A stretch of DNA of 64,000 bases from Candidatus Multivoradales bacterium (GCA_965223325.1 CBDCWI010000002.1:1280001-1344000); one strand, 5' to 3'. Counted from the first letter of the stretch, positions 1,460 to 15,378 are shown. Notes: generated by a model from the sequence alone, not told the origin. Numbers and translations: made by a program.

Positions 1460-3036
1460 TCGTGCTCCTTTGCCCCGGCGAGCGCTTCGAGCAGGGCCGA
1501 ATCGATGCGTGCCTTGACCGTGCGCCGGTCGAGGCCGAGGCGGCGGGCTGCTTCGACGTAGCTGCCGGCCTTCGAGTACACCAACGTCGTGTACCCCGAG
1601 AGCAGCTCGTCGGCGTCGAGATCACCTACCTCGAGGCGCGCCAGAAAGCCGGCGAGACCCGGCGGGTCGACCGCCTCGCCGCCGGCCGGGTGGTACGAGC
1701 CGCGCACCAGGACGTTGCGTACGCACTGCTCGAGCTCTCGGAAGTTTCCGCGCCATGGATACTCCGACCCGAGGTTCTGCCGAACGAAAGCCGTCGTCTC
1801 GGCGGCCAGCGAATCGGCCTCGGAGGCGCCCACCATACGCCCGGCGATGGTCGCGATCAGCCGACCGAGCTCAGACGGTGCATCGTCGAGTTGCTCGCGC
1901 AAGGACGGCGTGCGCACGATGTCCGAGCAGATTCGGTAGTAGAAGTCTTCGCGCATGCGGCCTTCTGCCATCTCGACCTCGGGCTCACGGTTGGTCGCCG
2001 CAATCAGTTTGCCGCGGAAGCGCCGGGTCTCGGTATCGCCGAGGCGCTGGAAGGTCCTGGTCTGGAGAACCCGCAACAGCTTTACCTGGATGGTTTCATC
2101 GATCTCGCCGATCTCGTCGAGAAACACCGAGCCGAGTGGTGGACAGACCTCGAACCAGCCCTCCCGGTCGGCCACTGCGCCGGTGAAGGCGCCACGCTGG
2201 TGGCCAAAGAGTTCCGACTCGATCAAGGTCGGCGAGAGGGCCACCAGGTTGAGGGCGAAAAAGGCTCCCTCGAAGTCTTCGGCAAATGCCTGCCTGGCCT
2301 GGTCAAAGGGAATGAATCGAGAAAGACCGATGGCCCGCGCAACTAATTCCTTACCCGTACCTGAGGGGCCGGTAATCAGCGTCGTGACATCGCCCATGCG
2401 GTCATAGAGGCCACGGCGGTAGCGGCGCATGTCGTGAGTGAAGATCGACTGCCAAACCGCCGAGCGCAGCGCCGCCGCCGGTTTCGAGGCACCAGCGAAG
2501 GTGCCGAAGACGAAGTGAAAGGCCCGTCGCAGCTGGAAGAACCACCCGAGGCACAACGAGGCGTCGAGGCGCTCGACCATCCCGAGGTCTGGATCGTTGA
2601 TCCAATGGTGAATCTGCTTCTCGAGCGCCGGGAAGATCGCCACCGGGCGGGTCGATGCCACACCGCCGCGCGCAATCAGTGCGCCGAGATCACCCTGATG
2701 CAGGTTATAGAGGTGGTAGAGAACGAGATCACGCCACAGGCGGCGCGTCTCCTCGCTGGGCCTATCGCCCTTTCTGTTCTTTTCTACCAGTCGAGGGCGC
2801 GCACGCTCGAGCAGCGCCGCGAGCCGCTGGTCGATCAAGGGTAGGTTGGGATTCTTCTCGTAGTCACTGGCCCGGTGCCAGACCTCCTGACCGAGCTCCT
2901 GGTACTGGCCGCCAAGAGCTTCGCGCTCGAGGGACACGCGCTCGACGGAGAAAGGATCAGCGTGTGACAAGCGCGCCACCGCCTCGACGAAAGCCCGGTC
3001 GGAACCGGCAAACAGATGGGGCGCAGCACTAGCCAT
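1456..3036 (-). CDS. sigma54-dependent enhancer-binding transcriptional regulator (AAA+ plus C-terminal HTH)
   Basis: Walker A GPSGTGKE, ESELFGH.GAFTGA, FLDEIGE, YPWRGNFRELE, HTH AARRLGLDRRTV; no REC domain. Confidence 0.92.
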   Translation of the reverse strand: MASAAPHLFAGSDRAFVEAVARLSHADPFSVERVSLEREALGGQYQELGQEVWHRASDYEKNPNLPLIDQRLAALLERARPRLVEKNRKGDRPSEETRRLWRDLVLYHLYNLHQGDLGALIARGGVASTRPVAIFPALEKQIHHWINDPDLGMVERLDASLCLGWFFQLRRAFHFVFGTFAGASKPAAALRSAVWQSIFTHDMRRYRRGLYDRMGDVTTLITGPSGTGKELVARAIGLSRFIPFDQARQAFAEDFEGAFFALNLVALSPTLIESELFGHQRGAFTGAVADREGWFEVCPPLGSVFLDEIGEIDETIQVKLLRVLQTRTFQRLGDTETRRFRGKLIAATNREPEVEMAEGRMREDFYYRICSDIVRTPSLREQLDDAPSELGRLIATIAGRMVGASEADSLAAETTAFVRQNLGSEYPWRGNFRELEQCVRNVLVRGSYHPAGGEAVDPPGLAGFLARLEVGDLDADELLSGYTTLVYSKAGSYVEAARRLGLDRRTVKARIDSALLEALAGAKEHE

Positions 3037-3111
3037 TCCCGGATCCTATGCAAGTCCGGGCCCGAAGATACAACCCGGGCCCAAGGGGCCTTCAGGTGTC
3101 AAACAGGAGGC

Positions 3112-3645
3112 TCAAGCCTTGACGACCTTGGTACTCGCCATCATGTCGTGGATGCAGCGTCGATCGGCACGGAAAATGAAGAGAACGTCGATAAGGCCAA
3201 AGAAGGGAATGAAGCTCACCAGCAGCTGCGTCGCCGCAAAGCGAATGAACACCACCTTCCCGACCGGAACCGGCGAGCCATCGTCGTTGACGATCTTCAC
3301 TCCGAGCATGCGCTTGCCGATCGTCTGACCATTCTCTGCCAGGAGTTTGAGGGTCCAGCCACACCAGGCAACAAGGCCGAGAAGCACGCCCAGAGCGCCG
3401 CCGAGCAAAGCGAGGTCCTCGTCAACCGAGACCATCGAGACCATAACCAGGAAGCCCGGCAGCAACACGGCCATCAGACTCAGATTGTCGACGATCTTGG
3501 CCACCAGGCGCGAACCCGGATCCGCCAGGGTCGAGTGGTCAGTGGCGGTCGGAGCGACTCCGCCGACGTCCGCGTTTGGCGCCGCGTAGGGGTTGTCGTA
3601 GGGCGAAAGGCTGGGTTGCAGAGTCTGCGGGTCGGACATCGTCAA
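3112..3645 (-). CDS. RDD family membrane protein
   Basis: NPYAAP N-terminus, RLVAKIVD, GQTIGKRMLGVKIV, RRCIHDMMAST. Confidence 0.88.
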   Translation of the reverse strand: MTMSDPQTLQPSLSPYDNPYAAPNADVGGVAPTATDHSTLADPGSRLVAKIVDNLSLMAVLLPGFLVMVSMVSVDEDLALLGGALGVLLGLVAWCGWTLKLLAENGQTIGKRMLGVKIVNDDGSPVPVGKVVFIRFAATQLLVSFIPFFGLIDVLFIFRADRRCIHDMMASTKVVKA

Positions 3646-3967
3646 TTTTCTCCAAAATACATCGAATACCAGACATACAAAGTATACATGGTTTCTAGCT
3701 CGATTCCCAGCCTCCTAAGTAAACCTCTCATTCAAAGGGACTTACGAGCCAGACGGAGGTCAGGTCGGCAGTCACCAGGATTCAGGCCCTCCCCAGAATC
3801 ATCCCAGTCATTTCCCAGTCGATCGCCCGGCGTTTGCCCGGCGACGGCCGGGCTGCCGATCCAACGAGGCAGGATCACTCCAGCGAGAATCCGCGGCCAA
3901 ACGCAGCTGCGGTGTGACGACCTTCGGAGGCTGAAGGCGAAGCGGGCCGCTTGCGCCGCAAACGGAG

Positions 3968-5251
3968 CTAGTACCGGAGAACCGAGAACAGCATCGCCTT
4001 TTGAACGTCAGTCGAGAATCCATCGGCGCTGTAGTCGGCGATCTTGAGACCGACGACCTGGCCGCCGGGCGCCTTCCAGGTCACGAGAGCATCGACTTCG
4101 GTGCCGTAGTCGCCCGAGGTGTTCTCGGCCGAAAAGTCGTGGTAGGCGGCCTGTACATTCCACACACCCTTGCCCCAGCCAAGCTTCAGGTAGAGGTCTT
4201 CGAGACCGTTGGCAGGAGTTGCGAGGAACTTGTCGGCGAAGCCGTTGAACTTGTGCAGTGTGGCAAGCGGGGTGATGAACGCCGTCGTCCCGTCGCCTTC
4301 GAGAACTTCGGTCCCGAGGCGAGCGCTCCAGGCACCCTGTTTGAGCCCGCCCTCGACCCGCAGGTAGTCGTGCGAGAGATCGGCGGCGTTGTCGCCATAG
4401 TCGTCCTGGCGGGCGAACTGTAGATCGTAGAGGCCCGCAAGACCAGAGGAACCGAGCGCGCTCGAGCCCGTGAAGCTCACCGCGACGGTCGCCCGTGAGC
4501 GCCCAGAAAGAGCCGCGGCGTCGTAGTCCAGCCACTGCCCCGAAATCCCCAACACTCCCCCACCGAACGCACGTCGCACGTCGGCTAGATGTCCCGTCAG
4601 GTCCTGCCGAGCGCCGGTGATCGTATGCACCCGGTCGAGGAAGACGTAGGAGAGCTTCCAGGCCTCCTTGCCTTCTCCGATGGCGGTATCGATCGACACG
4701 GCATCGAAACTCTGGTGGTTCTGACGCCAGGCAACCGCGCCAACGAAACGCTGGTCGCCGAGGTTCTTCTCGAACCGCCCGGCCTTGACCGCCACCTGGC
4801 CGCCGAAGTCGTAGGCCACCCAGGCCTGGTTGATCTCGGTGAGATCGGGGTCGGCGACCACGGGACGATTGGTCACACCGTTGTGAAGGGAGCGCGCACC
4901 AACATTGTTGTAGAGCTCCTCGCGCGGGCCACTGACGTCTTCGACCTCCAGCCCGAAGGTAAAGCCGCTCAACGGGGCACTCTGGAACACGAAACCGGAA
5001 CGCAGGGTGAGCGCCTCGCCATCGCGGCCTTCGAAACGCGCGGCGTCGTCATCGACAAACTCGAAGCGCGGTCTGAAGGAGACACCCCACTTGCCCTTCT
5101 TGAAAGTCTCCCCGAGGGTCGAAGCCACTTCATCCTCACTGTCCGATGCAGCCTGGGCAGCCGGAGGGGCGACCAGCGCGAGCGAGAAGAGGAGGGCAAG
5201 AGAGGCCAGGGCCGACGATCGGACAGTCCAACGAATGGTTCTATAAAGCAT
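3968..5251 (-). CDS. outer-membrane beta-barrel protein (alginate-export/AlgE-like porin)
   Basis: Signal peptide, alternating beta-strand pattern, RFVGAVAWRQN.QSFDA and TPLATLHKFNGFADKFL motifs, C-terminal aromatic residue; start may be 5275. Confidence 0.75.
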   Translation of the reverse strand: MLYRTIRWTVRSSALASLALLFSLALVAPPAAQAASDSEDEVASTLGETFKKGKWGVSFRPRFEFVDDDAARFEGRDGEALTLRSGFVFQSAPLSGFTFGLEVEDVSGPREELYNNVGARSLHNGVTNRPVVADPDLTEINQAWVAYDFGGQVAVKAGRFEKNLGDQRFVGAVAWRQNHQSFDAVSIDTAIGEGKEAWKLSYVFLDRVHTITGARQDLTGHLADVRRAFGGGVLGISGQWLDYDAAALSGRSRATVAVSFTGSSALGSSGLAGLYDLQFARQDDYGDNAADLSHDYLRVEGGLKQGAWSARLGTEVLEGDGTTAFITPLATLHKFNGFADKFLATPANGLEDLYLKLGWGKGVWNVQAAYHDFSAENTSGDYGTEVDALVTWKAPGGQVVGLKIADYSADGFSTDVQKAMLFSVLRY

Positions 5252-5326
5252 TGAAAAACTCCTGAGGGTGTGCACCCTACGTCCGAGAGGTAAGAAAAGG
5301 GAAAGGCGAAAAGGCGAGAAGAGGAA

Positions 5327-5914
5327 CTAGCCGCCGCTGGCCGTATGACCTAGCGGATCACTGACACTCGCCACCGCGACGTGGCACTGCCGGCAATTCA
5401 CGCGCTCGGGATGGCTGGTACGCAACTCGGGGCGCGCCGCATCGCCGTCATGACAGGCCAGGCAGTTCTCGCGCATGAAGACCCGATGCGGCAGTCGCGG
5501 CGGGGCGATCTCACTCGCTCGATCGCCGTGCACCCCGCCGGGCCCGGTGGCCGAGACTTCGAGGGCCTTGCCCACGAAGGTGGAGGCCACGAAGACGTCA
5601 TCGGTTGCCACCTCGACGTGACACTGGCGGCAGCGGGCAGCCGCCATTCCCAGCGTGCCGCCATGCGGCAGAGCTGGCGAGAGACCGACGTTTGGAACCT
5701 CGATCGCCCGGTCGCCATGACAGGAAACACATTCCGCCGAGAAACCGAGGTGCGGGATGACCGGAGGCGCACCGTGAAAGGCCCGGCGCTCGGCACGCTC
5801 GGCGTACGAAGCAGGATCTTCTCCAGGGCCCGGGCCCGGCGAGCAGCAGAGCGCGCCGAGGGACGCCACGAGAATGACTGCCAGTGTTCGAACCGTGAAT
5901 ACGGGGGGGCCCAT
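5327..5914 (-). CDS. napB: NapB-like nitrate reductase cytochrome c subunit, tetraheme (duplicated module)
   Basis: GAPPVIPH..CVSCH..CRQCHV repeated as APPRLPH..CLACH..CRQCHV; directly follows napA. Confidence 0.8.
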   Translation of the reverse strand: MGPPVFTVRTLAVILVASLGALCCSPGPGPGEDPASYAERAERRAFHGAPPVIPHLGFSAECVSCHGDRAIEVPNVGLSPALPHGGTLGMAAARCRQCHVEVATDDVFVASTFVGKALEVSATGPGGVHGDRASEIAPPRLPHRVFMRENCLACHDGDAARPELRTSHPERVNCRQCHVAVASVSDPLGHTASGG

Positions 5915-5925
5915 CTCGCGACCTC

Positions 5926-8340
5926 TCAGACCCGTTCGACGCGCACGGCGCACTTCTTGAAGTCAGGCTCTTTCGAGATGTTGTCCAGCGCGTCGAGTGT
6001 GAGCTCGTTGATCAACTTCGACTCGTCGAAGAAGGGCACGAAGACCGATCCTTCGGGCGGTGCCCCCCGCCCGTCGACGGCGGCTTGCAGTTCGATGGTG
6101 CCGCGGCGACTCGTTACCCGCACTCGCGACCCGTCCTGCACGCCGAGGCGCGCCGCATCGGCTGGATTGAGCTCGACGTAGGCCTCGGGTACCGCCTGGT
6201 GCAGCTGCCGTACGCGGCGGGTCATCGAACCGCTGTGCCAGTGTTCGAGGACCCGGCCGGTCGAGAGCCACAGAGGGTACTCGTCGTCTGGGATCTCGGC
6301 TGGCGGGTGGTAGGGGCGCAGCCAGAAGGCCGCCTTTTCGCCATACCCCTTGGCCTTGTAAAAGTGCACACCCTCGTTCTTCTTGACGTATGGGTCGATC
6401 CCGGCGGCGTAGCGATAGGGGGTTTCGCGCCCGTCGACAACCGGCCAGCGCAACCCACGGGTGGCCTTCAGATCCTCATAGGAGGCGAGATCTTTGCCGA
6501 CCCCGAGGGTGAAGCTCCGATACTCCTCGTACATCGCCTCGTGCCAGTCCCCCTCCCAGGGGAACAGGTACCCCATGCCCATGCGCCTGGCCACTTCGAC
6601 GATCTGCTCGGCGTCCTCGACCGCCTCGCCGGGAGGCTCGATCATCTTGTTCCAGTGCTGGGTGCGCCGCTCGGTGTTCCCGAAGACACCCTCGCGCTCG
6701 ATCCACGCGGCGGCAGGGAGCACGAGGTCGGCCATCTCGGTGGTCGGTGTCGGATAGATCTCGGAGACCACCACGAACCGACCGTCACCCGGCTGGCGCT
6801 CGAAACGATGCAGGTTGGGCAGCGACAACCACGGGTTGGTGGTCTGAATCCACATTGCTTTGACGTCACCGCGCCGAAGCGCACGAAACATGTCGACTGC
6901 GTGGTACCCGGGCTTGGGATTGATCGTCCCGGGTTCGAGGCCCCAGATCTCCTCAGTCTTCTTGCGGTGGTCGGGATTCATCACCACCATGTCGGCCGGC
7001 AGTCGATTCGACAGCGTGCCCACTTCGCGTGCCGTTCCGCACGCCGAAGGTTGCCCGGTGAGACTGAAGGGGTTGGCACCGGGGCGGCCGATCTTACCGG
7101 TGATCAGATGGAGGTCGTTGATCAGGTTGTTCATCCAGGTGCCGCGAGTGTGCTGGTTGACCCCCATGCACCACAGGCTGACCGTGCCGCGGCTGCGGGC
7201 CCCGTAGATCTCTGCCAGCGAGTGGATGGTCGCAGCAGGCACTCCGGTGATCTCACTCGTGCGCTCGGGGCTGTAGTCCGCCAGGAAGGTACGCAGCTCG
7301 GCGAGTGAACTGTCACGGCCCTTGTCTTTCCAGGTGTAGCGCTCGGCCTGGTCGCCGTAGCAGCCATAGCCGATCTCGTCCTGGTCTTCGATGCCGCGCT
7401 TCCAGACCACGTTCTCGTCGATGAACGCCTTGTCGATGGCGTCGTTCTCGAGCAGGAGATGCATGATGCCGTTGGCCAGCGCCAGATCGGTGCCGGGCTT
7501 GAACTGCACATAGAGATCGGCATACTGCGAGGTCGCCGTCCGCCGTGTCGCGAGGTCGATGATGCGAACGTCGGGGCGCTGGCGCCGGGCCTCGAGAATG
7601 CGGCTGAACAAGACCGGATGCGCCTCGGCCATGTTGTTGCCCCACAGCACGAAATCGTCGCCAACCTCGAAGTCTTCGTAGCAGCCCATCGGCTCGTCGC
7701 TCTGGAACTGGGTCACGAAACCCATCACCGCGCTCGCCATGCACAGACGCGCATTCGGGTCGATGTTGTTCGAACGCATTCCGCCTTTGACCCACTTGAG
7801 CGCCGCATACCCATCGTGCACGGTCCACTGTCCTGAGCCATAGACGGCCACCGACTCGGGACCACTCTCGGCCAAGGCCTCCTGGAACTTCTCGGCGATC
7901 AGATCGTAGGCCTCGTCCCAGGAAATGCGTTCGAGCTTCCCGTTGGCATTGCGGCGCTGCGGGTACAAGAGGCGGTCTTCGCCGTAGAGAAGACCCGGCA
8001 GGTGGTAGCCCTTGACACACAAGAGACCCCTGTTGACAGGGTTCTTGGTGTCGCCGCGCACGGCTACGGCGCGCCCATCCTGGACCCCGACCTCGACCCC
8101 ACAGCCGGCTCCACAGAAGCGACACGGGGCCTTCTGCCAGTTCACACCCTCACGATCGAGAGCCGCGACGTCGGTGTCGTCGGCGGCTGCCTCGATCTCT
8201 CGCGCTCGTTCCTGGTCGCTGCAAGAGAAGGCCGCTGCGGCCGCACCACCGGTACCAAGAACAGTCAGGAATCGACGTCGGTCGACACCACGTTTCGGAT
8301 CGTTCGGATTCTTCATCGGGTTCGTTTTCCGGAAGGCCAT
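5926..8340 (-). CDS. napA: periplasmic nitrate reductase catalytic subunit
   Basis: Tat motif DRRRFL, [4Fe-4S] motif CRFCGAGC...C, Mo-ligand region NARLCMASAV, GQPSACGTAREVG, C-terminal PDFKKCAV. Confidence 0.93.
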   Translation of the reverse strand: MAFRKTNPMKNPNDPKRGVDRRRFLTVLGTGGAAAAAFSCSDQERAREIEAAADDTDVAALDREGVNWQKAPCRFCGAGCGVEVGVQDGRAVAVRGDTKNPVNRGLLCVKGYHLPGLLYGEDRLLYPQRRNANGKLERISWDEAYDLIAEKFQEALAESGPESVAVYGSGQWTVHDGYAALKWVKGGMRSNNIDPNARLCMASAVMGFVTQFQSDEPMGCYEDFEVGDDFVLWGNNMAEAHPVLFSRILEARRQRPDVRIIDLATRRTATSQYADLYVQFKPGTDLALANGIMHLLLENDAIDKAFIDENVVWKRGIEDQDEIGYGCYGDQAERYTWKDKGRDSSLAELRTFLADYSPERTSEITGVPAATIHSLAEIYGARSRGTVSLWCMGVNQHTRGTWMNNLINDLHLITGKIGRPGANPFSLTGQPSACGTAREVGTLSNRLPADMVVMNPDHRKKTEEIWGLEPGTINPKPGYHAVDMFRALRRGDVKAMWIQTTNPWLSLPNLHRFERQPGDGRFVVVSEIYPTPTTEMADLVLPAAAWIEREGVFGNTERRTQHWNKMIEPPGEAVEDAEQIVEVARRMGMGYLFPWEGDWHEAMYEEYRSFTLGVGKDLASYEDLKATRGLRWPVVDGRETPYRYAAGIDPYVKKNEGVHFYKAKGYGEKAAFWLRPYHPPAEIPDDEYPLWLSTGRVLEHWHSGSMTRRVRQLHQAVPEAYVELNPADAARLGVQDGSRVRVTSRRGTIELQAAVDGRGAPPEGSVFVPFFDESKLINELTLDALDNISKEPDFKKCAVRVERV

Positions 8341-8391: not shown

Positions 8392-10044
8392 TCAGGGCCC
8401 GCTCGGAGCTGAGCCCTGTCCGTAGCGTTCCTGCATCTGACGACGGATCTGTTCCATCTGGTCTGTCGCACCCTGTTCGAACCAGGCGTGCTCGGGACGT
8501 GCAAGGAGGTCATTGATGACCTTCTCGGCCCGGGCCGCACCAGCGGCGTTGCCGTGCGAACGCCCATGGGCGACGAGCTCACGCGCCTGCGGGATGAGCT
8601 CCATGTAGAAGCGCTCGGCAACTTCATACATGCCGTGCCAATGGGTGTAGTCGGGAGCCATCATCGCAGCGCCATGGCGAGCGCGCCGGCCCTCGTGATG
8701 CCAGAGGTAGAACCAGGTCCACTCGATCTCTTCGTCGAATTGCGTGTCGGAGATCAGGCCGTTGCTGCGCAGCGCAGTCACAATGTCGCGACCGGGCTTG
8801 GCGAACTTCTCGTTGTAGAGAATCACCAGGTTGTCGTACTGCTTGTAGAAGCCCTCGATGTAGGAAGGCGTGTGGCAGTGCGAGCACACTTCCTTCATCC
8901 GATTGCGCTTCGAGGTCGCCGTATCGACGGTCAGCTTCTGGCGTTCGATCGGGTCTGTCTCCTTGACCAGGTGGCCGTTGATGTCGGTATCCATCACCAG
9001 CGACACCGGCGGGCGGTTGGTCCACGAAATGCGAGTCCCAGGATCGTGGGTCACCTCGCCGCCGTTGCGACTGTGGCCCGACATGTGGCAGGTGGCGCAG
9101 GTCGGCGCTTCAGAGTAGTCCTCGCCGAGGACCCAGTTCTCACCGTCGAGATCCATCTCATCCTTGAGATCGCGATAGGCGATCCCGTGTTTGGACTCTT
9201 CGAAGATCTCCTTCTGCGGATGATCTGGGCCGAGGTGACACTTGCCGCAGTTCTCAGGCTGCCGCGCACGCCGCGGCGAAAAGTCATGCCGGCTGTGACA
9301 TGCCGAGCAGGAACCGCGCGACCCGTCGAGGTTCAGGCGACCGATGCCCGTGTTGGGCCAGGTGCCTTGATGGAAAACTGGCCGGCCGTTGTCGGCCCGT
9401 TTGATACGCGCCACCGCGGCGGTGTTGGTTGGCTTTCCGTCCTCGTCCGGCTCGAGCTCATCGACCGTAATGCGACTTCCGTCGGCGGCCTCGAGCGCCA
9501 CCTTCGAACCGTGACACTGCTGGCAGCCGCTGAACGCCGAGGCACCGCCCTCGACCAACTCCATCGGGCGACCGGGGGTTGGCGAGTGAGGGTTGAAACT
9601 CCCGCGCGCACCCTCGACCGTTTCGGCGAGGAAGTTGTCGAGCGAGGCCAGGATGTTGCCGGCCGCCGCATGGTGACTGCTTTCGAACTGGTGCGCCTCT
9701 TCCTGGTGACACTGCCCGCAGTCGCGTGGTGTGACGACGGTCGCGATCAGGCTGCCGTAGTGCGAGTGCGCATCCGCCTCGCCCTCGTTGGCCTGATGGC
9801 AGTCATAGCACCCCACGCCACTGTGGGCGTGCTGGCTGCCTTCCCAGTGCTCGTTGATGCCGGGCGTGGTCTGACCATGGCAATCGACACACGACGCCGA
9901 TGAAGCCGGCACCGCGACTTTGACGGTCGTTACTCCGGCCTCTTCGGCCTTGCGGATGACTTCCATCCACTGCACGAAGACCAGCGACAGCAGGAAGACA
10001 GCCGCCAGGATGATGATGATCTTTCTTTTCTGATTCAGTGTCAT
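8392..10044 (-). CDS. octaheme cytochrome c, hydroxylamine oxidoreductase (HAO) family, with N-terminal membrane anchor
   Basis: Eight CxxCH motifs (CVDCH, CYDCH, CGQCH, CQQCH, CSACH, CGKCH, CATCH, CSHCH); HAO-type CSACHSRHDFS..ARQPENCGKCHLGPDHPQKEI and APDYTHWHG. Confidence 0.9.
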   Translation of the reverse strand: MTLNQKRKIIIILAAVFLLSLVFVQWMEVIRKAEEAGVTTVKVAVPASSASCVDCHGQTTPGINEHWEGSQHAHSGVGCYDCHQANEGEADAHSHYGSLIATVVTPRDCGQCHQEEAHQFESSHHAAAGNILASLDNFLAETVEGARGSFNPHSPTPGRPMELVEGGASAFSGCQQCHGSKVALEAADGSRITVDELEPDEDGKPTNTAAVARIKRADNGRPVFHQGTWPNTGIGRLNLDGSRGSCSACHSRHDFSPRRARQPENCGKCHLGPDHPQKEIFEESKHGIAYRDLKDEMDLDGENWVLGEDYSEAPTCATCHMSGHSRNGGEVTHDPGTRISWTNRPPVSLVMDTDINGHLVKETDPIERQKLTVDTATSKRNRMKEVCSHCHTPSYIEGFYKQYDNLVILYNEKFAKPGRDIVTALRSNGLISDTQFDEEIEWTWFYLWHHEGRRARHGAAMMAPDYTHWHGMYEVAERFYMELIPQARELVAHGRSHGNAAGAARAEKVINDLLARPEHAWFEQGATDQMEQIRRQMQERYGQGSAPSGP

Positions 10045-10060
10045 CAGGACTCCAAAAGGG

Positions 10061-11152
10061 TCAGTGGGCGACGGCTGCCTCCCAGATCGTCAGGATGGTG
10101 ATTGCGAACACGCCGACAATGCCAATCCAGACAGTCGCTTCTCGAAAACGTGTGTTCTTGCGGATCCAGGCGTCGATGAAGGGCCAGGTGAACATGACGA
10201 ACACGATGAAGCCCATCGACAGAATCGCAGCGGTTCCCGAGAACAGCTTCAACCAACGAAACGTCACATAGAAGAACCACTCGGGCTTGATCACGTCGGG
10301 GGTGACCAAGGGATCGGCCTTGGGGCCGAGGGTAGCCGGGAAAACAGTCGCCAGGAAAGACAAGAGGATCATCAGGGTGAGGCCGGCCATGACCTCGGAG
10401 AGCACGTGATCCGGGAAGAAGTTGAAGGTCTTCTTGGGCCTTTCTTTCTCGTCCTCGAACTCGAACTCGGTCACGCCCTGCAGCCGAATGATCGCAATGT
10501 GCACCACGATCAGCAGAATGAGGGTGATCGGAAGAACGGCGGCGTGGAGGACGTAGAAGCGCGGCAGAGTGTTGTCGTTGTAGACCTCTCCGCCGAGCAT
10601 GAAGTCGCGCATCAGGCCGCCAACGATCGGAACGTTGGCGGCGATATTGGCGCCGACCGTCGCACCCCAGAAGCTGAGCTGCTCGAACACCAGGCTGTAG
10701 CCGGTGAAGCCGAGCATCAACGACGTCAACAAGAGGCACATACCCACCATCCAGTTGAGCTCGCGCGGCTTTCTGAAGGCGCCAGTGAAATAGACCCGCA
10801 TCTGATGGAGCACGACCGCCGCAATCATCAGCGTCGCACCCCAGCGATGCAGGCTACGCAAGAACCACCCATACGACGCCTCGTTGGTGATGTAGAGCAC
10901 CGACTCGTAGGCGCTCTCTGGCGACGGCTTGTAGTAGAGCGCCAGCAGAATGCCGGTGACAATCTGCACCACGAACAGATAGGCCGGGGTGCCGCCGAGT
11001 GCGAACCACCACCGCTTGAGGTGGTTTGGGACCGGTTCATTGGTGAGCTCGCGCAGCTGCTCCATCGAGAAGGGCAGACGTTCCTGAATCCACTGGGCGG
11101 CGCGAGCTCCAGTCCTCCTGGTGAGCGAACGTTCGTGAGCCGGAGTCGTCAT
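10061..11152 (-). CDS. cytochrome b of a Rieske/cytb (bc-type) complex, fused b6 + subunit IV type
   Basis: GWFLRSLHRWGA, LHQMRVYF, FYVLHA...VVH heme ligands; Qo-site variant KPEWFFY. Confidence 0.92.
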   Translation of the reverse strand: MTTPAHERSLTRRTGARAAQWIQERLPFSMEQLRELTNEPVPNHLKRWWFALGGTPAYLFVVQIVTGILLALYYKPSPESAYESVLYITNEASYGWFLRSLHRWGATLMIAAVVLHQMRVYFTGAFRKPRELNWMVGMCLLLTSLMLGFTGYSLVFEQLSFWGATVGANIAANVPIVGGLMRDFMLGGEVYNDNTLPRFYVLHAAVLPITLILLIVVHIAIIRLQGVTEFEFEDEKERPKKTFNFFPDHVLSEVMAGLTLMILLSFLATVFPATLGPKADPLVTPDVIKPEWFFYVTFRWLKLFSGTAAILSMGFIVFVMFTWPFIDAWIRKNTRFREATVWIGIVGVFAITILTIWEAAVAH

Positions 11153-11162
11153 CTAACAGCCC

Positions 11163-11816
11163 CTAGGCGCTCTCGTCGTTGGCGGTCTGGTCGGCCACAG
11201 AGTGGGACGCCCGCTGCAGGTCCGGAAACAGGCACGGGTCATGACCAGGACCGATGGGGCAGGTCCCACGAAACACCTCGGGCGCTTCGATGGTGCCTTC
11301 GCCCGCCGCGACCTCGGCAGCTTCGAGCTCGATGAACAACAGGCCGTTCTCGACCTTGAGTGGGTAGGTCGGCAGGCTCTGTCCGGCTTCGGCCGGAGGA
11401 CCGCTAGTCGCCACCCCGGCAGGGTCGAACACGCCGTTGTGACACGGGCAAAAGAAGCGGTCGTTGGCAGCTTCCCAGTGCACCTGACAGCCGAGATGCG
11501 GGCAGGTAGACGACAGCGCAACCAACGAGTCGTCGCCCTCGCCCTGGCGGGCAATGTTGATCGTCGAGCCCAAAGGTGTACGGAAAACAATTGCCTCACC
11601 GGCAGCGATCCTCTCGGCGCCCGTGACGTACATCCAACGCGAGGTTTCGCCCGCCGCCGGATAGGCAAAGCGAGCCATGAAGACGGCCAGGGTGCCGTAG
11701 GCCGCCGCCAGTGCGCCGAACATCGAAACGCCAACTGCCCGGTGCAGAAAACCGCGGCGATCCTGCTCATCGGCCGGGTTGCTGGCCGGAAGGTGGTCAG
11801 AATGAGTGGTGTTCAC
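11163..11816 (-). CDS. Rieske [2Fe-2S] protein
   Basis: Tat-like DRRGFL plus TM helix; CPHLGC and CPCHNG boxes; GPP. Confidence 0.93.
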   Translation of the reverse strand: MNTTHSDHLPASNPADEQDRRGFLHRAVGVSMFGALAAAYGTLAVFMARFAYPAAGETSRWMYVTGAERIAAGEAIVFRTPLGSTINIARQGEGDDSLVALSSTCPHLGCQVHWEAANDRFFCPCHNGVFDPAGVATSGPPAEAGQSLPTYPLKVENGLLFIELEAAEVAAGEGTIEAPEVFRGTCPIGPGHDPCLFPDLQRASHSVADQTANDESA

Positions 11817-11883: not shown

Positions 11884-13533
11884 TCAGAAGGGCCTGAAGC
11901 CCGGCGAACCGAAGCGCTCCAGCGAGAAGAGGTGGTACATCGGATAGGCGTAGGCGATGATGATCAAAAGCACGGCCACTGCGGTCCACAAACCGAGGCG
12001 GTCCCACAGAAGCTCGCCACCGGTGACCTGCTCGGAGGCATGGAGCGGCCTGGCGAATTCGATCGAGGGCGGGTCGATATGTTTGCCCCAGATCATCGTC
12101 GCAGCGACCACGGCGATAAAGCACAGTGAGCTCACAAACAGCACCATGCCGCCGAGAGCCGAGAACATCGTCAGGTTCTCCCAGGCCTTCGAGGCCTCCG
12201 AGCCGGCGAAGTTCGAACTGTAGACCCGCCTCGGTTCACCGAGCAGCCCGGTGACGTGACTCGTCCAGGCGAACATCACCATGCCGAAGAACCACAGGTA
12301 GGGCTGAATCGTCGCGACCTCCCGCAGCATCAATGCGCGACCACTCAAACGCGGCAGGAGCCAGTACGAGGCACCCATGAACGAAAGCGCCACAGCAGTA
12401 CCAACGGTCAGATGAAAGTGCCCATGGATCCAGGCGGTGTTGTGCACCATCGTGTTCATGGCAAACGCCGCGTTGATCGCGCCGCCCCAACCACCGACGG
12501 CAAAGGTGATCATCGCCAGGGCGATGCACGCGAAGAACGGCTCGCGCCAGGGCAGCTTCCAGATCCAGTTGAACAAACCTGTAGCGCCGCGCAGGCGACC
12601 AGCGATCTCGAGCGAAGCGATGACTGTAAAGGCGGTGATCAGGCTCGGAAACAGGATCGCGTAGGTGGTCGCGGTATGGACCAGCTTCCACGACGCCGGA
12701 ATCCCCGGGTCGGTGAACTGATGGTGGAAGCCGACCGGAGTCGAGAACAGGATGAACATCACGAACACCACTCGGGCCAAGCGGTCACTGAACAAACGCC
12801 CCCCGGCGACCTCGGGCAGCACCGTGTACCAGAGCATGTAGGTCGGCAACAACCAGAAGTAGGTCAGCGGGTGACCGAACCACCAGAACCAGGTGCGCGC
12901 GACAATCGGATCGATGCGCTCGATCCACCCCAGAGACCAAGGTACCAGTTGACCAAGCACCTCGGCCGCAAGACCCGAGGTCGCCAGCAGCCAGATGATC
13001 ACCGAGGTGAGCATCGCGTGCATGGCAAGTGGCAGAGGCTCGACCTTGCCGCCGTTGCGGTTCTCGCGACGCCAGGCAAGCCAGGTGCGGATCATCACCA
13101 CGCACCAGATCCACGACCCAACGATCAGAAGGGTGGCGCCGATGTAGAACAGCGGGTGGGCCTGGAGCGGCGGATAGAACGTGTAGAGAACCGTCGCCTC
13201 GCCACTCAGAATCGTAAGAGCAGTAAGCAGTGAGCCAATCGTTGCCACCCAGAACGCACTCCACCCCATCGCCTCGCTCTCGAGCCGGCCGAGCGTCCGC
13301 CGAGCGATGACATAGCCGAGGCCCATGATGAAGAACGTCGTAAAAACCAGGGCCATCAAGACACCGTGCGCGGTCACCGAGACGTAGTAGACCTCGGGCG
13401 AACGAAACGCCACATCGAGGTCGGCACGCGAAAGCGACTGCATAACCGCCATCAAGGCGCCAATGCCAAAGGCTCCAATCGAGACGCCAAAGTTGGCGAG
13501 CGGCAGCTGATTGCGCCGCGTGGCTTCGTTCAT
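11884..13533 (-). CDS. cbaA: heme-copper oxidase subunit I, B-family (ba3/b(o/a)3 type)
   Basis: TAHGVLM, FWWFGHPLTYFWLLP, GFHHQF.DPGI, PSLITAFT, HNTAWIHGHFHL, PRR. Confidence 0.9.
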   Translation of the reverse strand: MNEATRRNQLPLANFGVSIGAFGIGALMAVMQSLSRADLDVAFRSPEVYYVSVTAHGVLMALVFTTFFIMGLGYVIARRTLGRLESEAMGWSAFWVATIGSLLTALTILSGEATVLYTFYPPLQAHPLFYIGATLLIVGSWIWCVVMIRTWLAWRRENRNGGKVEPLPLAMHAMLTSVIIWLLATSGLAAEVLGQLVPWSLGWIERIDPIVARTWFWWFGHPLTYFWLLPTYMLWYTVLPEVAGGRLFSDRLARVVFVMFILFSTPVGFHHQFTDPGIPASWKLVHTATTYAILFPSLITAFTVIASLEIAGRLRGATGLFNWIWKLPWREPFFACIALAMITFAVGGWGGAINAAFAMNTMVHNTAWIHGHFHLTVGTAVALSFMGASYWLLPRLSGRALMLREVATIQPYLWFFGMVMFAWTSHVTGLLGEPRRVYSSNFAGSEASKAWENLTMFSALGGMVLFVSSLCFIAVVAATMIWGKHIDPPSIEFARPLHASEQVTGGELLWDRLGLWTAVAVLLIIIAYAYPMYHLFSLERFGSPGFRPF

Positions 13534-14109: not shown

Positions 14110-14277
14110 TCATTGAAGAGGTGCTCCGCGTTCGAGAAACACAAGGACATAGAGCCCAACCCACCCGAGGATGAAGAGCACTGCATAAACCACCATCACA
14201 GCGAGAGTCCCCTTCGGATGCTCAGGAAGGTCTTCAACACGGACGGTGTGTTCGGGGTGTGACTGCCGATCGTTCAT
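14110..14277 (-). CDS. cbaD: ba3-type oxidase small subunit IIa (55 aa)
   Basis: Manual translation MNDRQSHPEHTVRVEDLPEHPKGTLAVMVVYAVLFILGWVGLYVLVFLERGAPLQ has the PKG.LAV...W.G.Y..F..RG pattern of Thermus subunit IIa; too short to appear in the ORF track. Confidence 0.82.
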   Translation of the reverse strand: MNDRQSHPEHTVRVEDLPEHPKGTLAVMVVYAVLFILGWVGLYVLVFLERGAPLQ

Positions 14278-14679
14278 CTACAGGCCTCTTTGCAACCGGT
14301 CGCCTGATCTGCTACCAGCGTCAGAAGTTAGCGAGGAGCCACGGGCGACGACATACGTGAAAGCACGTAAAGAGATGGTGTGGAACAACAGGGGAAGGAG
14401 GGAAAGTCTGCGGGCGGCGCGAAGACTCTAACTGCTAGCTGACTCCGAACAAGAGATCGCGAGCCCGGGCAACAGCCAAGCCACCGTCCGAGCCCAGCGC
14501 CAAGACTGCATCACCAAAGAACCAATCCCGTCACAAAAGCGAGCTGCCGAAGGCACGAGCATGCCCCCACCCACCTAAGACTTTGCGGGACGTCGTCCGC
14601 CCGGCCTTCCTGCCCCATCCATTCCAACAACCGAGACCAAAACAACCGAAACAACCCGAGCAACCCGAGTCGTCAAGAA

Positions 14680-15378
14680 TCACAGAGAATCAAAAACCCC
14701 CCGCACATCGCCGAATCCAGCAGCCCGATCAGCCACCTCCTGCAAAGCGACCATCCGCTCCTCGAGCTCCAAGCGGCAGTGCTCGAACTCCGGCGAACGC
14801 ATGCGCGAAGGCACCTCCAGAGGCTCGCCGTACACCACTTCGACGCGCGCGAACGGCCAGGCCAAGAGAGTGCGGTCCCAGGTACGCGCGAGAATGCGCG
14901 CCGGGCGCGCCGAAACCGTGATCGGCACGATCAGACCACCAGTGCGCTGAGCCAGCGACACAATGCCGCCCTGGACCCGGCCGCGCGGCCCCCGCGAACC
15001 GTCGACCGCCAGGCAGGACCCCAGCTCCGGATCGGCACGAACGCGTCGAATCATGTCGACGATCGCCTGCAGACCGTCACGACCGGAGGAGCCCCGCACC
15101 ACCTCGAATCCCAGGCGCTCCTCGATCCTGGCCATCGCATCGCCGTCGAGACTCTTCGAACACATCGACAACCAGCGCCCGTTGCGGGCCCTGGCCATGA
15201 AGCACAGCAACATGAACGTTCGACCGTGCAGGAAGGCTCCCACGACCGGCCGGCCGGAAGCGCGCGCAGCGTCGAAATGTTCCCGACCAGTCTCGCGGTA
15301 ACGCCACGAACGATCGAGCAAGCGCAGGAGCGCCAGTGCCAGGATGGGCACCACCTGCCTCATCAACACCCGCTTCAT
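14680..15378 (-). CDS. DUF374 / lysophospholipid acyltransferase family protein
   Basis: FLHGR, SKSLDGD, VRGSS..G, AVDGSRGP, WDR.LL.WPF. Confidence 0.82.
   Translation of the reverse strand: MKRVLMRQVVPILALALLRLLDRSWRYRETGREHFDAARASGRPVVGAFLHGRTFMLLCFMARARNGRWLSMCSKSLDGDAMARIEERLGFEVVRGSSGRDGLQAIVDMIRRVRADPELGSCLAVDGSRGPRGRVQGGIVSLAQRTGGLIVPITVSARPARILARTWDRTLLAWPFARVEVVYGEPLEVPSRMRSPEFEHCRLELEERMVALQEVADRAAGFGDVRGVFDSL

What the first reader, a model, noticed from the sequence alone, without database searches (positions are those of the whole stretch)
8392..11816. Rieske/cytb complex whose c-type subunit is a catalytic HAO-family octaheme
Seen: Rieske, cytb and octaheme genes are spaced by 10 and 16 bp, and the octaheme has an N-terminal TM segment. 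Known: anammox Planctomycetes encode Rieske/cytb complexes with HAO-like subunits. Inference: the octaheme may replace cytochrome c1, making a direct quinol:nitrite (or NO/hydroxylamine) oxidoreductase, or a heme wire distributing electrons to NapB and CuA, in what is probably a non-anammox organism.
Basis: partly seen in the sequence, partly recalled or inferred. Interest (0 to 1): 0.8.

Follow-up and report, generated by a model that had tools for sequence, protein, structure and literature searches.

The report
Rieske/cytochrome b complex with octaheme reductase
Three tightly packed genes encode a membrane quinol-oxidising complex whose usual small cytochrome c is replaced by a membrane-anchored eight-haem enzyme that most likely reduces nitrite, a widespread but biochemically untested module already noted in genome papers.

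Summary
In detail: Rieske (11163-11816), cytochrome b (10061-11152) and an eight-CxxCH protein (8392-10044) lie on the minus strand, 10 and 16 bp apart. The octaheme has an N-terminal membrane helix.

It belongs to the HAO fold family and is closest to the Ignicoccus octaheme nitrite reductase IhOCC. It keeps the Asp-His pair of the HAO active site. His aligns where oxidising HAOs carry their cross-linking Tyr.

This is the genome's only cytochrome b and only HAO-family gene. No cytochrome c1, NrfA, NirS, NirK, NirA/B or Hcp was found. Rieske and cytochrome b lie directly upstream of the octaheme in 67 of 69 related loci. NapA follows in 42 of 68. A co-fold places the octaheme's helix on cytochrome b (0.80 against 0.00 for controls).

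Best reading: a quinol:nitrite oxidoreductase that probably makes ammonium. It may also feed the co-encoded NapA/four-haem NapB and ba3-type oxidase.

It is not anammox-like. The anammox complex-linked HAO is only 24% identical and sits behind a separate hexaheme.

The same trio is in print for Nitrospira and Caldithrix, and this scan has reported it at least eight times on other DNA. It is real and untested at the bench, but not new.

The parts
11163..11816 (-). Rieske [2Fe-2S] subunit, 217 aa. It has a twin-arginine motif RRGFL (residues 20-24), an N-terminal anchor, and the cluster boxes CPHLGC (105-110) and CPCH (123-126).
   Evidence: The box II context CPCHNGVF lacks the Ser and Tyr of high-potential bc1 Rieske proteins (recalled rule, not tested).
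10061..11152 (-). Cytochrome b, 363 aa, a fused b6-like and subunit-IV-like protein. It has haem ligands H102, H116, H203 and H218, the Qo motif PEWF at 290-293, and Ala at the b6f haem-ci cysteine position (WFALGG).
   Evidence: It is the only PF00033 match in the genome.
8392..10044 (-). Membrane-anchored octaheme cytochrome c of the HAO/IhOCC family, 550 aa.
   Evidence: It is the only PF13447 match in the genome.
9940..10038 (-). N-terminal transmembrane helix of the octaheme (residues 3-35), the predicted contact with cytochrome b.
   Evidence: AF2 helix 3-35. The co-fold interface is octaheme residues 1-38 against cytochrome b 107-123, 338-360, 271-277 and 289-295. Invariant positions within the helix across phyla are shown.
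9511..9525 (-). Fourth CxxCH motif (CQQCH, residues 174-178), the position of the catalytic five-coordinate haem in HAO-family enzymes.
   Evidence: for the position. The assignment follows the family's haem order (Soares et al.) and is inferred.
9217..9228 (-). PDHP, containing Asp274-His275, which align with the distal-pocket Asp267-His268 of Nitrosomonas HAO.
   Evidence: Profile alignment to 4fas. Invariant in 29 of 29 family members.
8632..8652 (-). DYTHWHG (465-471). His468 aligns with the cross-linking Tyr451 of Kuenenia HOX, and Tyr466 is invariant two residues upstream.
11884..13533 (-). Haem-copper oxidase subunit I of the B family (ba3 type). The active-site H221-x3-Y225 and the CuB and haem histidines are present.
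   Evidence: 425 bits to Thermus thermophilus ba3 subunit I. Motifs. The NOR-type relatives lack this Tyr (PMC11214002).
13530..14039 (-). Oxidase subunit II with the CuA motif CNEFCGLSHHMM.
14110..14277 (-). 55-aa single-helix ORF at the head of the operon, possibly a ba3 subunit IIa-like peptide.
   Evidence: The assignment is inference only.
5926..8340 (-). Periplasmic nitrate reductase NapA with the twin-arginine motif RRRF.
   Evidence: NF010055 944.2 bits, cut-off 904..
5327..5953 (-). NapB-like tetraheme ('double NapB') with four CxxCH motifs and a lipoprotein-like N-terminus.
   Evidence: A homologue follows NapA in 27 loci.
3968..5275 (-). Outer-membrane beta-barrel of the alginate-export (AlgE-like) family, the last gene of the cluster.
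   Evidence: PF13372 38.3 bits. A homologue lies beside the trio in 23 loci by ORF clustering and in 15 of 80 by tblastn at 40% coverage or more.

Best explanation
The three genes encode one membrane complex, probably of an Acidobacteriota bacterium. A Rieske/cytochrome b core oxidises quinol at a Qo site. Its high-potential outlet is not cytochrome c1 or f. It is an HAO/IhOCC-family octaheme held on cytochrome b by its own N-terminal transmembrane helix. Electrons from the Rieske cluster would enter the octaheme's haem chain and reach the fourth haem, which is open on its distal side and lined by Asp274, His275 and Arg344. There nitrite, made in the same compartment by the co-encoded NapA, is reduced, most likely all the way to ammonium. 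Because quinol would be oxidised through a Q-cycle-type core, this periplasmic nitrite reduction would be coupled to proton-motive force. Nitrate reduction would be coupled too if the octaheme passes electrons on to the four-haem NapB. Shown here: the gene order, the family assignments, conservation of the trio, absence of alternative partners and enzymes in this genome, and a co-fold that passes its controls. Inferred: the electron path, the substrate and product, and any hand-over to NapB or to the CuA of the ba3-type oxidase.
For: Gene order and spacing.

Family and fold. PF13447 scores 81.6 bits. The best solved relative by sequence is IhOCC 4qo5, at E 3.7e-41 for the single sequence and 9.7e-81 for the profile. 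The AF2 model has pLDDT 91.3 and pTM 0.84. Foldseek gives 4qo5 at E 2.9e-21 with TM 0.62/0.65, followed by HAO, HOX and HDH chains; NrfA and ONR score E 7.6e-3 or worse.

Active site. Asp274-His275 align with NeHAO Asp267-His268 and are invariant in 29 of 29 family members. Seven non-motif histidines are conserved, enough for seven bis-His haems and one open haem. KsHOX Tyr451 aligns with His468.

Subunit role. The genome has one cytochrome b, one HAO-family gene and no cytochrome c1. Rieske and cytochrome b lie directly upstream in 67 of 69 loci with room for them, and gaps of about 9-60 nt between cytochrome b and the octaheme are typical's table, where some cytochrome b starts were mis-called. 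No other conserved c-type cytochrome occurs in the neighbourhoods apart from the NapB-like tetraheme. The co-fold of cytochrome b with the octaheme scored 0.80 (runs 0.80, 0.80, 0.81) against a best control of 0.00. That mark was reached by 116 of 157 solved complexes and 2 of 215 mismatched pairs. The runs agree in at least 85% of contacts and the partner's pLDDT is 86. My own alignments were used, so the calibration counts hold only roughly. I know of no solved complex of an HAO-type protein with cytochrome b, so a pass by likeness is unlikely. That statement rests on recall and on the PDB hit lists.

Enzyme role. The genome (98.2% complete) has NapA but no NrfA, no NirS (27), no NirK above cut-off (28), no NirA/B-type NIR_SIR (78), no Hcp (tblastn, 102) and no NOR. 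Its three haem-copper enzymes are two A-type oxidases and this B-type one, which keeps the active-site Tyr. IhOCC is described as an octaheme nitrite reductase without P460 (PMC9250108, passages read). The trio stands alone, with unrelated flanks, in 26 of 68 loci.

The aerobic chain has its own alternative complex III and caa3 oxidase elsewhere, so this complex is a specialised branch.
Against: Nothing here is biochemical. The co-fold places only the helix (residues 1-38) with confidence. HAO-family proteins are usually oligomers built on three C-terminal helices, which are present here, whereas bc cores are dimers; how the two symmetries fit is unexplained. An invariant Tyr466 lies two residues from the position aligned with the cross-linking Tyr, at the low-confidence end of the hhalign alignment, so an unusual cross-link is not strictly excluded. 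The product (ammonium, NO or hydroxylamine) is inferred only from the absence of downstream enzymes. IhOCC itself has Val in place of His275, so active-site chemistry may differ from the nearest solved relative. Absence calls rest on Pfam/NCBIfam models and one tblastn query in a two-contig genome.
Confidence: 0.6

Rival explanations
1. The octaheme is only an electron-transfer subunit, a long haem wire. It links the Rieske cluster to NapB/NapA, to the CuA of the ba3-type oxidase or to other periplasmic acceptors. Its HAO-like pocket would be a relic or serve only in detoxification.
For: It lies between a ba3-type oxidase and NapA/tetraheme NapB in one gene string with no NapC or NapGH. The only NapC/NirT-family gene is far away beside a porin-like gene. 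NapA follows the octaheme in 42 of 68 loci, and B-type oxidase genes lie in 5 of 80 loci. Other Rieske/cytochrome b complexes use multihaem c subunits as wires (Kuenenia Kuste4573, PMC12954380).
Against: The Asp-His pair and Arg344 are invariant in 29 of 29 members across several phyla, which is hard to explain for a relic. In 26 of 68 loci the trio has no redox partner next to it. The genome would then have no way to dispose of the nitrite made by NapA. The two roles do not exclude each other.
Confidence: 0.15
2. The octaheme is a nitrite reductase that is merely co-transcribed with the Rieske/cytochrome b genes. It is anchored by its own helix or released by signal peptidase, and it receives electrons by transient collision, perhaps through a soluble carrier. 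It would not be a stable subunit replacing c1.
For: No experimental interaction data exist. The co-fold gives confident contacts for the helix only. AlphaFold3 failed to dock the HAO-like Kuste4574 on its complex in Kuenenia although the subunits co-migrate (PMC12954380). One relative (L057) lacks the Rieske/cytochrome b genes and sits behind Hcp.
Against: The helix is conserved across phyla at specific positions (M1, L3, K6, L13, L21, V24, Q25, E28, E35 in at least 26 of 29), unlike ordinary signal peptides. It is predicted to pack against cytochrome b helices with 0.80 against 0.00 for controls. No c1-like or other small cytochrome c is conserved in the clusters, and the genome has no c1.
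Confidence: 0.15
3. The enzyme performs a one-electron reduction of nitrite to NO, like the Kuenenia HAOr Kustc0458, or works mainly on NO or hydroxylamine. The co-encoded ba3-type oxidase would remove NO.
For: Kustc0458 is the second-best solved relative. HAO proteins without the Tyr cross-link can make NO (Ferousi et al. 2021, as cited in PMC9250108). Rrf2-type regulators flank the trio in 5 loci, a globin lies between the octaheme and NapA in L075, and Hcp precedes it in L057. B-family oxidases reduce NO slowly (PMC11214002).
Against: The genome has no dedicated NO reductase of the haem-copper family and no Hcp. The closest solved relative is described as an octaheme nitrite reductase, and the Nitrospira homologous arrangement is read as ammonium-forming.
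Confidence: 0.1

Closest known systems
Nitrospira octaheme cytochrome c (OCC, also called ONR) with adjacent Rieske/cytochrome b genes (N. moscoviensis, N. japonica). Sources: Koch et al. 2015 and Ushiki et al. 2018, as summarised in PMC6311188 and PMC5767232 (passages read).
   Same: An OCC gene is co-localised with two genes for a Rieske/cytochrome b complex. [quoted passage not shown] There is no biochemical characterisation.
   Different: In Nitrospira the trio sits in a nitrogen-assimilation cluster and is read as assimilatory. Here it is flanked by a ba3-type oxidase and NapA/tetraheme NapB/porin. I could not fetch a Nitrospira sequence, so orthology with the window's protein was not tested.
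Caldithrix abyssi nap-Rieske/cytochrome b-epsilonHao locus, Cabys_2564-2556 (Kublanov et al. 2017, PMC5317091; passages read).
   Same: Rieske, cytochrome b and an HAO-family octaheme lie next to a Nap cluster. There is no canonical bc1, no nearby monohaem c and no NrfA. [quoted passage not shown]
   Different: Caldithrix has NapM, NapG and NapH and lacks NapB. Here there is no NapM/G/H, there is a four-haem NapB, and a ba3-type oxidase lies upstream. Sequence relatedness to Cabys_2556 was not tested.
IhOCC (Igni_0955) of Ignicoccus hospitalis, PDB 4QO5.
   Same: It is the best solved relative by sequence and by fold. It has eight haems in the HAO arrangement and no P460 cross-link, and it is described as an octaheme nitrite reductase (PMC9250108).
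   Different: Foldseek gives 24% identity. IhOCC has Asp-Val where the window protein has Asp-His. It is archaeal. No Rieske/cytochrome b partnership is mentioned for it in the passages I read.
Kuenenia stuttgartiensis Rieske/cytochrome b complex Kuste4569-4574 (PMC12954380; passages read).
   Same: A Rieske/cytochrome b complex is associated with an HAO-like octaheme proposed to reduce nitrite, and the subunits co-migrate.
   Different: The anammox complex has split b6 and subunit IV, an NAD(P) oxidoreductase subunit and a separate membrane-anchored hexaheme in the c1/f position; the HAO-like protein is an extra subunit. In an anammox genome with the same gene order (L128), that HAO is 24% identical to the window protein over residues 52-408, whereas two other paralogues reach 42-43% over the full length.
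Sister octaheme family (P0134 type) of Planctomycetota, including Brocadiaceae.
   Same: It is about 45-50% identical. In L115 it is followed by NapA and a NapB-like tetraheme.
   Different: It is preceded by a tetraheme, a 4Fe-4S protein and an NrfD-like membrane protein in place of Rieske/cytochrome b. A different quinol dehydrogenase module feeds the same kind of enzyme.
Qcr-dependent periplasmic nitrate and N2O respiration in Campylobacterota (Garg et al. 2018; Hein et al. 2017). I saw these only as entries in a reference list; their content is recalled.
   Same: A Rieske/cytochrome bc complex, rather than NapC, supplies periplasmic reductases, which makes the pathway electrogenic.
   Different: Those complexes keep a dihaem cytochrome c subunit and soluble carriers, and no octaheme enzyme is built in.

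Membership tests
HAO/IhOCC-family octaheme cytochromes c (Pfam PF13447) | Eight CxxCH haem-binding motifs in the family's order | tested here: met
   Motifs start at residues 52, 79, 109, 174, 246, 266, 316 and 387. 75 of 76 homologous ORFs of 520 aa or more also have eight; L038, which is N-terminally truncated, has seven.
HAO/IhOCC-family octaheme cytochromes c (Pfam PF13447) | Profile match above the curated cut-off, and the HAO fold with C-terminal long helices | tested here: met
   81.6 bits against a cut-off of 21.9. Foldseek top hits are 4qo5, 6h5l, 1fgj, 4n4j and 6hif, all with probability 1.00. Long helices run at 393-427, 439-460 and 464-496.
HAO/IhOCC-family octaheme cytochromes c (Pfam PF13447) | Open (five-coordinate) fourth haem with a distal Asp-His pair | tested here: inconclusive
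   Asp274-His275 align with NeHAO Asp267-His268 and are invariant in 29 of 29. Seven conserved non-motif His residues fit seven bis-His haems. Coordination itself cannot be read from sequence.
Oxidising HAO/HOX/HDH subgroup (P460 haem) | Tyrosine that cross-links to the catalytic haem of the neighbouring subunit | tested here: not met
   The KsHOX orthologue was identified at 1153 bits to 4n4j, with Tyr451 in the motif NQTYGNG. hhalign of A1 against A3 aligns Tyr451 with His468, which is His in 27 of 29 and Gln in 2. Caveat: this is the end of the alignment, and an invariant Tyr466 lies two residues upstream.
Rieske/cytochrome b complexes (bc1/b6f superfamily) | Rieske protein with CxH and CxxH cluster boxes, disulfide cysteines and a Tat-type anchor | tested here: met
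   CPHLGC at 105-110, CPCH at 123-126 and RRGFL at 20-24. PF00355 scores 43.7 bits.
Rieske/cytochrome b complexes (bc1/b6f superfamily) | Cytochrome b with four haem-ligand histidines and a PEWY-type Qo motif | tested here: met
   H102, H116, H203, H218 and P290-E291-W292 are invariant in 25 of 25 sequences. The spacing is 13 residues in helix B and 14 in helix D, as in b6 (the b6 comparison is recalled).
Rieske/cytochrome b complexes (bc1/b6f superfamily) | A cytochrome c1, f or dihaem c subunit | tested here: not met
   There is no PF02167 match in the genome. No such gene occurs in the cluster or is conserved in 80 related loci. The octaheme occupies that gene position.
Anammox Rieske/cytochrome b complex R/b-3 (Kuste4569-4574 type) | Split b6 and subunit IV, an NAD(P) oxidoreductase subunit, a separate membrane-anchored hexaheme, and an additional HAO-like subunit | tested here: not met
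   The window has a fused 363-aa cytochrome b, no extra genes between Rieske and the octaheme, and no hexaheme. An anammox-type cluster (L128) shows Rieske, a 595-aa protein, b6, a 248-aa protein and a hexaheme ahead of its octaheme. That octaheme is 24% identical to the window's.
Nitrospira-type OCC with Rieske/cytochrome b | An OCC gene co-localised with Rieske and cytochrome b genes | tested here: met
   the literature description is.
Nitrospira-type OCC with Rieske/cytochrome b | Orthology of the octaheme with the Nitrospira protein | not tested
   No named Nitrospira sequence could be fetched with the tools, and none of the 80 loci kept is labelled Nitrospirota.
NrfA / ONR nitrite reductases | NrfA/ONR fold and the Cytochrom_C552 profile | tested here: not met
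   There is no PF02335 hit. Foldseek E-values to ONR and NrfA chains are 7.6e-3 or worse, with TM 0.29 or less.
B-family haem-copper oxygen reductase (the upstream oxidase) | CuB histidines and the active-site His-x3-Tyr that the NOR-type relatives lack | tested here: met
   HPLTY at 221-225, FHHQ at 269-272 and GHFHL at 371-375. 425 bits to T. thermophilus ba3. The criterion comes from PMC11214002.

The most novel reading that the evidence does not exclude
The whole string from 14277 to 3968 (small peptide, ba3 subunits II and I, Rieske, cytochrome b, octaheme, NapA, four-haem NapB, outer-membrane channel) encodes one branched respiratory assembly. In it the membrane-anchored octaheme would be both enzyme and hub. 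It would take electrons from the Rieske cluster, reduce nitrite to ammonium at its own fourth haem, and hand electrons sideways to NapB/NapA and to the CuA of the high-affinity oxidase. A single Q-cycle core would then make oxygen, nitrate and nitrite reduction all proton-motive and let the cell switch between them without soluble carriers.
Probability: 0.2. Interest if true: 0.7.

Novelty: new member of a known kind. Interest (0 to 1): 0.4.

Why it matters
If the complex works as inferred, periplasmic nitrite reduction would be driven through a Q-cycle-type quinol oxidase instead of the non-electrogenic NapC/NrfH route. Nitrate reduction would be too, if the octaheme feeds NapB. That would raise the energy yield of nitrate ammonification.

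The protein family is very large. 7997 of 8000 scored candidates matched, and at least 578 genomic loci were found among species representatives. These span Acidobacteriota, Gemmatimonadota, Planctomycetota and other phyla common in soils and sediments.

Such genes are commonly annotated 'hydroxylamine oxidoreductase'. That label could mislead metagenomic nitrogen-cycle budgets towards nitrification where the enzyme probably retains nitrogen as ammonium.

No member has been purified, so a single biochemical study would annotate thousands of genes. For this window itself, the finding is one more example of a module already noted in print and repeatedly in this scan.

Tried and rejected
RNA evidence for co-transcription: the look-up of sequencing runs listed four holders from one study and none on record as RNA ('no RNA holder listed'). 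I did not lay reads.

Operon signals: the consensus scan gave 1 promoter-like site (shuffles 1.4 +/- 1.3) and 13 terminator-like sites (shuffles 8.0 +/- 3.4), none convincing inside the string. A sigma-54 consensus search, prompted by the activator gene at 1456-3036, found 5 matches with up to one mismatch in the window against 4.14 expected, none near 14280-14680.

Reading the upstream oxidase as an eNOR/bNOR-type NO reductase was rejected, because the active-site His-x3-Tyr is present.

Reading the anammox R/b-linked HAO as the closest relative was rejected.

The nearest anammox paralogue (P0134 type) turned out not to be the R/b-linked one. It sits behind a tetraheme, a 4Fe-4S protein and an NrfD-like protein.

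A three-chain co-fold (Rieske, cytochrome b and octaheme; 1130 residues) exceeded the 1000-residue limit, so I folded only cytochrome b with the octaheme.

Model coordinates are not returned, so haem-ligand geometry and the position of Tyr466 could not be checked.

Literature searches for this module in Acidobacteriota or Gemmatimonadota returned no paper describing it there. PMC8906906 and PMC10732223 only list hao, R/b and nap genes.

Full report
**The observation.** On the minus strand, one search lists ORFs at 11163..11816 (217 aa), 10061..11152 (363 aa) and 8392..10044 (550 aa).

Pfam assigns a Rieske domain to the first. It assigns cytochrome b N- and C-terminal domains in one chain to the second. 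It assigns the HAO-type 'Multi-haem_cyto' family PF13447 to the third.

- The Rieske protein has a twin-arginine motif (RRGFL) and both cluster boxes, CPHLGC and CPCH.
- The cytochrome b has the four haem-ligand histidines and a PEWF Qo motif. These are invariant in 25 of 25 homologues.
- The third protein has eight CxxCH motifs. Its N-terminus reads KRK followed by 19 hydrophobic residues, which AlphaFold2 models as a single helix, residues 3-35. The model has mean pLDDT 91.3 and pTM 0.84.

**The surrounding genes.** The trio is the middle of a longer minus-strand gene string. In order it runs:

- a 55-aa one-helix ORF (14110-14277);
- oxidase subunit II with a CuA motif;
- oxidase subunit I;
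- Rieske, cytochrome b and the octaheme;
- NapA, which scores above the NCBIfam equivalog cut-off (944.2 against 904 bits);
- a NapB-like protein with four CxxCH motifs;
- an AlgE-like outer-membrane barrel.

Subunit I scores 425 bits to Thermus thermophilus ba3 and keeps the His-x3-Tyr of oxygen reductases. The NO-reducing offshoots of the B family lack that Tyr (PMC11214002, passages). I therefore read it as an oxygen reductase and rejected an eNOR-type reading.

**What the octaheme is.**

- By sequence, the best solved relative is IhOCC of Ignicoccus hospitalis (4qo5). It scores E 3.7e-41 with the single sequence and 9.7e-81 with a 48-sequence profile. Next come Kuenenia Kustc0458, then Nitrosomonas HAO, Kuenenia HOX and HDH.
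- Foldseek on the model gives the same order: 4qo5 at E 2.9e-21 with TM 0.62/0.65. NrfA and ONR chains score E 7.6e-3 or worse.
- The profile alignment to Nitrosomonas HAO puts Asp274-His275 on the distal-pocket pair Asp267-His268, and Arg344 on Tyr334. All three are invariant in 29 of 29 family members from several phyla.
- Seven further histidines outside the motifs are conserved. That is the number needed for seven bis-His haems and one open haem.
- To test the tyrosine cross-link that defines oxidising HAOs, I took the HAO paralogues of an unnamed anammox genome (11 PF13447 matches). I identified the HOX orthologue (1153 bits to 4n4j, Tyr451 in NQTYGNG) and aligned profiles. Tyr451 falls on His468, which is His in 27 of 29 members and Gln in 2.
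- The caveat is that this is the end of the alignment, and an invariant Tyr466 lies two residues upstream.
- Soares et al. (PMC9250108, passages) describe IhOCC as an octaheme nitrite reductase without P460. They note that HAO proteins lacking the cross-link reduce rather than oxidise.

**Is the octaheme the c-type subunit of the complex?** Four lines of evidence agree.

1. The genome has 6.69 Mb in 2 contigs and is 98.2% complete. It has exactly one cytochrome b, one HAO-family gene and no cytochrome c1. By tblastn, Rieske, cytochrome b and the octaheme are single copy.
2. A scan of one genome per species found 578 loci encoding a relative, and the best 80 were kept at 65-79% identity.
   - Of the 69 loci with at least 1900 nt upstream, 67 have Rieske and cytochrome b directly upstream of the octaheme.
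   - One exception is L038. There the gene is truncated, and a piece matching the first 111 residues lies elsewhere in the genome.
   - The other exception is L057, where the upstream gene is Hcp.
3. Clustering 746 neighbouring ORFs found no other conserved c-type cytochrome except the NapB-like tetraheme.
4. A co-fold of cytochrome b with the octaheme scored 0.80 in three runs against 0.00 for the best of three controls.
   - That mark was reached by 116 of 157 solved complexes and 2 of 215 mismatched pairs.
   - The runs agree in at least 85% of contacts and the partner's pLDDT is 86. My own alignments were used, so the counts hold only roughly.
   - The confident interface is octaheme residues 1-38 against cytochrome b helices 107-123 and 338-360 and the P-side loops 271-277 and 289-295.
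   - The haem domain is not confidently placed.

The helix also carries positions conserved in at least 26 of 29 members, which is unlike a disposable signal peptide.

**Is the octaheme an enzyme here?** The genome encodes NapA but none of the following:

- NrfA;
- cd1 NirS;
- NirK above cut-off (three weak multicopper hits);
- sirohaem NirA/B-type reductase;
- Hcp;
- a haem-copper NO reductase (three PF00115 hits: two A-type oxidases and the B-type one).

The octaheme is therefore the only recognisable route for the nitrite that NapA makes. A product such as NO or hydroxylamine would have no recognised consumer. That is why I favour six-electron reduction to ammonium.

The trio also occurs on its own, with unrelated flanking genes, in 26 of 68 loci. 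This fits a self-contained quinol:acceptor oxidoreductase. Hints of nitrogen-oxide physiology recur nearby: Rrf2-type regulators in 5 loci, a globin in L075 and Hcp in L057.

**Place in the respiratory chain.** An alternative complex III (ActA-F) lies directly upstream of a caa3-type oxidase elsewhere on the same contig. A second A-type oxidase exists as well. The Rieske/cytochrome b-octaheme complex is therefore a specialised branch, not the organism's general complex III.

NapA follows the octaheme within 1.6 kb in 42 of 68 loci. B-type oxidase genes lie in 5 of 80 loci. There is no NapC or NapGH in the cluster, and the only NapC/NirT-family gene sits elsewhere beside a porin-like gene. Hand-over of electrons from the octaheme to the four-haem NapB, and perhaps to CuA, is thus plausible. 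It rests on gene order alone.

**Organism.** The octaheme falls in a well-supported 13-row clade, nine of whose rows are Acidobacteriota (mostly Thermoanaerobaculia), in a FastTree of 77 rows. Earlier notes on this genome also speak of Acidobacteriota. With one HAO-family gene and an aerobic chain, it is not an anammox bacterium. Phylum labels are strongly clustered on the tree (12 changes against 34.0 in shuffles). The module is therefore mostly inherited within phyla, with some transfers.

**Comparison with what is known.**

Kuste4569-4574 has split b6 and subunit IV, an NAD(P) oxidoreductase and a separate multihaem subunit in the c1/f position. The HAO-like Kuste4574 is an additional subunit (PMC12954380, passages).
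- In an anammox genome I found the same gene order: Rieske, a 595-aa protein, b6, a 248-aa protein, a hexaheme and then an octaheme. That octaheme is only 24% identical to the window's over residues 52-408. Two other paralogues reach 42-43% over the full length.
- One of those two belongs to a sister family (P0134 type). It is preceded by a tetraheme, a 4Fe-4S protein and an NrfD-like protein, and in one planctomycete it is followed by NapA and a NapB-like tetraheme. This looks like a swap of the quinol-dehydrogenase module in front of the same enzyme.
- The real precedents are genome papers. [quoted passage not shown]
- In Caldithrix abyssi a Nap cluster carries Rieske, cytochrome b and an epsilonHao. 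The authors consider direct transfer from the complex to the octaheme (PMC5317091).
- None of these has been studied biochemically, according to the passages I read.
- My searches found no paper describing the module in Acidobacteriota or Gemmatimonadota.
- This scan has reported the same module at least eight times on other genomes. One of those notes led me to the Nitrospira literature, which I then read myself.

**Verdict.** The finding is a further, well-preserved member of a known and widespread but experimentally untouched module. The specific feature here is that it is strung together with a ba3-type oxidase upstream and NapA, a double NapB and a porin downstream.

Open points are the product of the enzyme, whether the octaheme also serves as a hub for NapB and CuA, the role of the invariant Tyr466, and how an HAO-type head fits on a dimeric bc core.

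Noticed in passing
window 10064-10066 (cytochrome b His363); alignment A2: The last residue of cytochrome b is a histidine in 22 of 25 homologues (motif WEAxVxH). By b6f topology (recalled) it should lie on the periplasmic side, near the octaheme. It may be a contact or ligand residue. It is missing in the three planctomycete-type sequences that carry the long insert.
   Followed up: no
alignment A2, column of window cytochrome b Ala51 (window 10991-11008, WFALGG): Six of 25 homologues (L013, L014, L022, L031, L053, L074) have Cys at the position that binds haem ci in b6f and Bacillus-type complexes (position recalled). The window has Ala. The family may be mixed with respect to a third haem on the N side.
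   Followed up: no
L050:8520-9998, L063:8516-9982, L069:8515-9984: In a planctomycete-type subgroup the cytochrome b is about 490 aa. A hydrophobic insert of about 130 residues, probably extra membrane helices, sits between the b6-like and subunit-IV-like halves.
   Followed up: no
L113, L114, L115 (unnamed Planctomycetota genomes G189, G396, G392): A sister octaheme family (about 45-50% identical; some members named from Brocadiaceae) sits behind a tetraheme, a 4Fe-4S protein and an NrfD-like membrane protein in place of Rieske/cytochrome b. In L115 it is followed by NapA and a NapB-like tetraheme. This looks like a module swap of the quinol dehydrogenase.
   Followed up: partly
window 5327-5953: The NapB-like protein has four CxxCH motifs, twice the two of NapB (recalled), and a lipoprotein-like N-terminus. 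Homologues follow NapA in 27 related loci.
   Followed up: partly
L020:9904-10383; also L050, L065, L074 and L075 directly upstream of Rieske; L075:12427-12891; L057:840-2531: Rrf2-family regulators flank the trio in 5 loci. A globin gene lies between the octaheme and NapA in L075. Hcp (prismane family) precedes the octaheme in L057, the one intact locus without Rieske/cytochrome b. All three hint at NO or hydroxylamine physiology.
   Followed up: partly
L038 / L099 and L100 (genome G003): In one Gemmatimonadota chromosome the octaheme gene lacks its first 54 residues and has no Rieske/cytochrome b upstream. A piece matching residues 1-111 lies about 1.27 Mb away. This is either a rearrangement or an assembly artefact.
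   Followed up: no
own genome C2:1201711-1214566 (locus L090): A complete alternative complex III (ActA-like multihaem, ActB, NrfD-like ActC, ActD, a cytochrome c, a further membrane protein) lies directly upstream of SCO1 and a caa3-type oxidase, about 66 kb before the window.
   Followed up: partly
own genome C2:4267411-4270474 (locus L092:9411-12474): The only NapC/NirT-family tetraheme of the genome lies next to a 780-aa porin-like protein and not next to nap or nrf genes. It may be a porin-cytochrome type conduit.
   Followed up: no
window 1456-3036 and 3016-4047: A sigma-54-dependent activator and a 343-aa ORF with no family match lie just beyond the porin gene. No sigma-54 promoter consensus was found near the start of the respiratory gene string.
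   Followed up: partly
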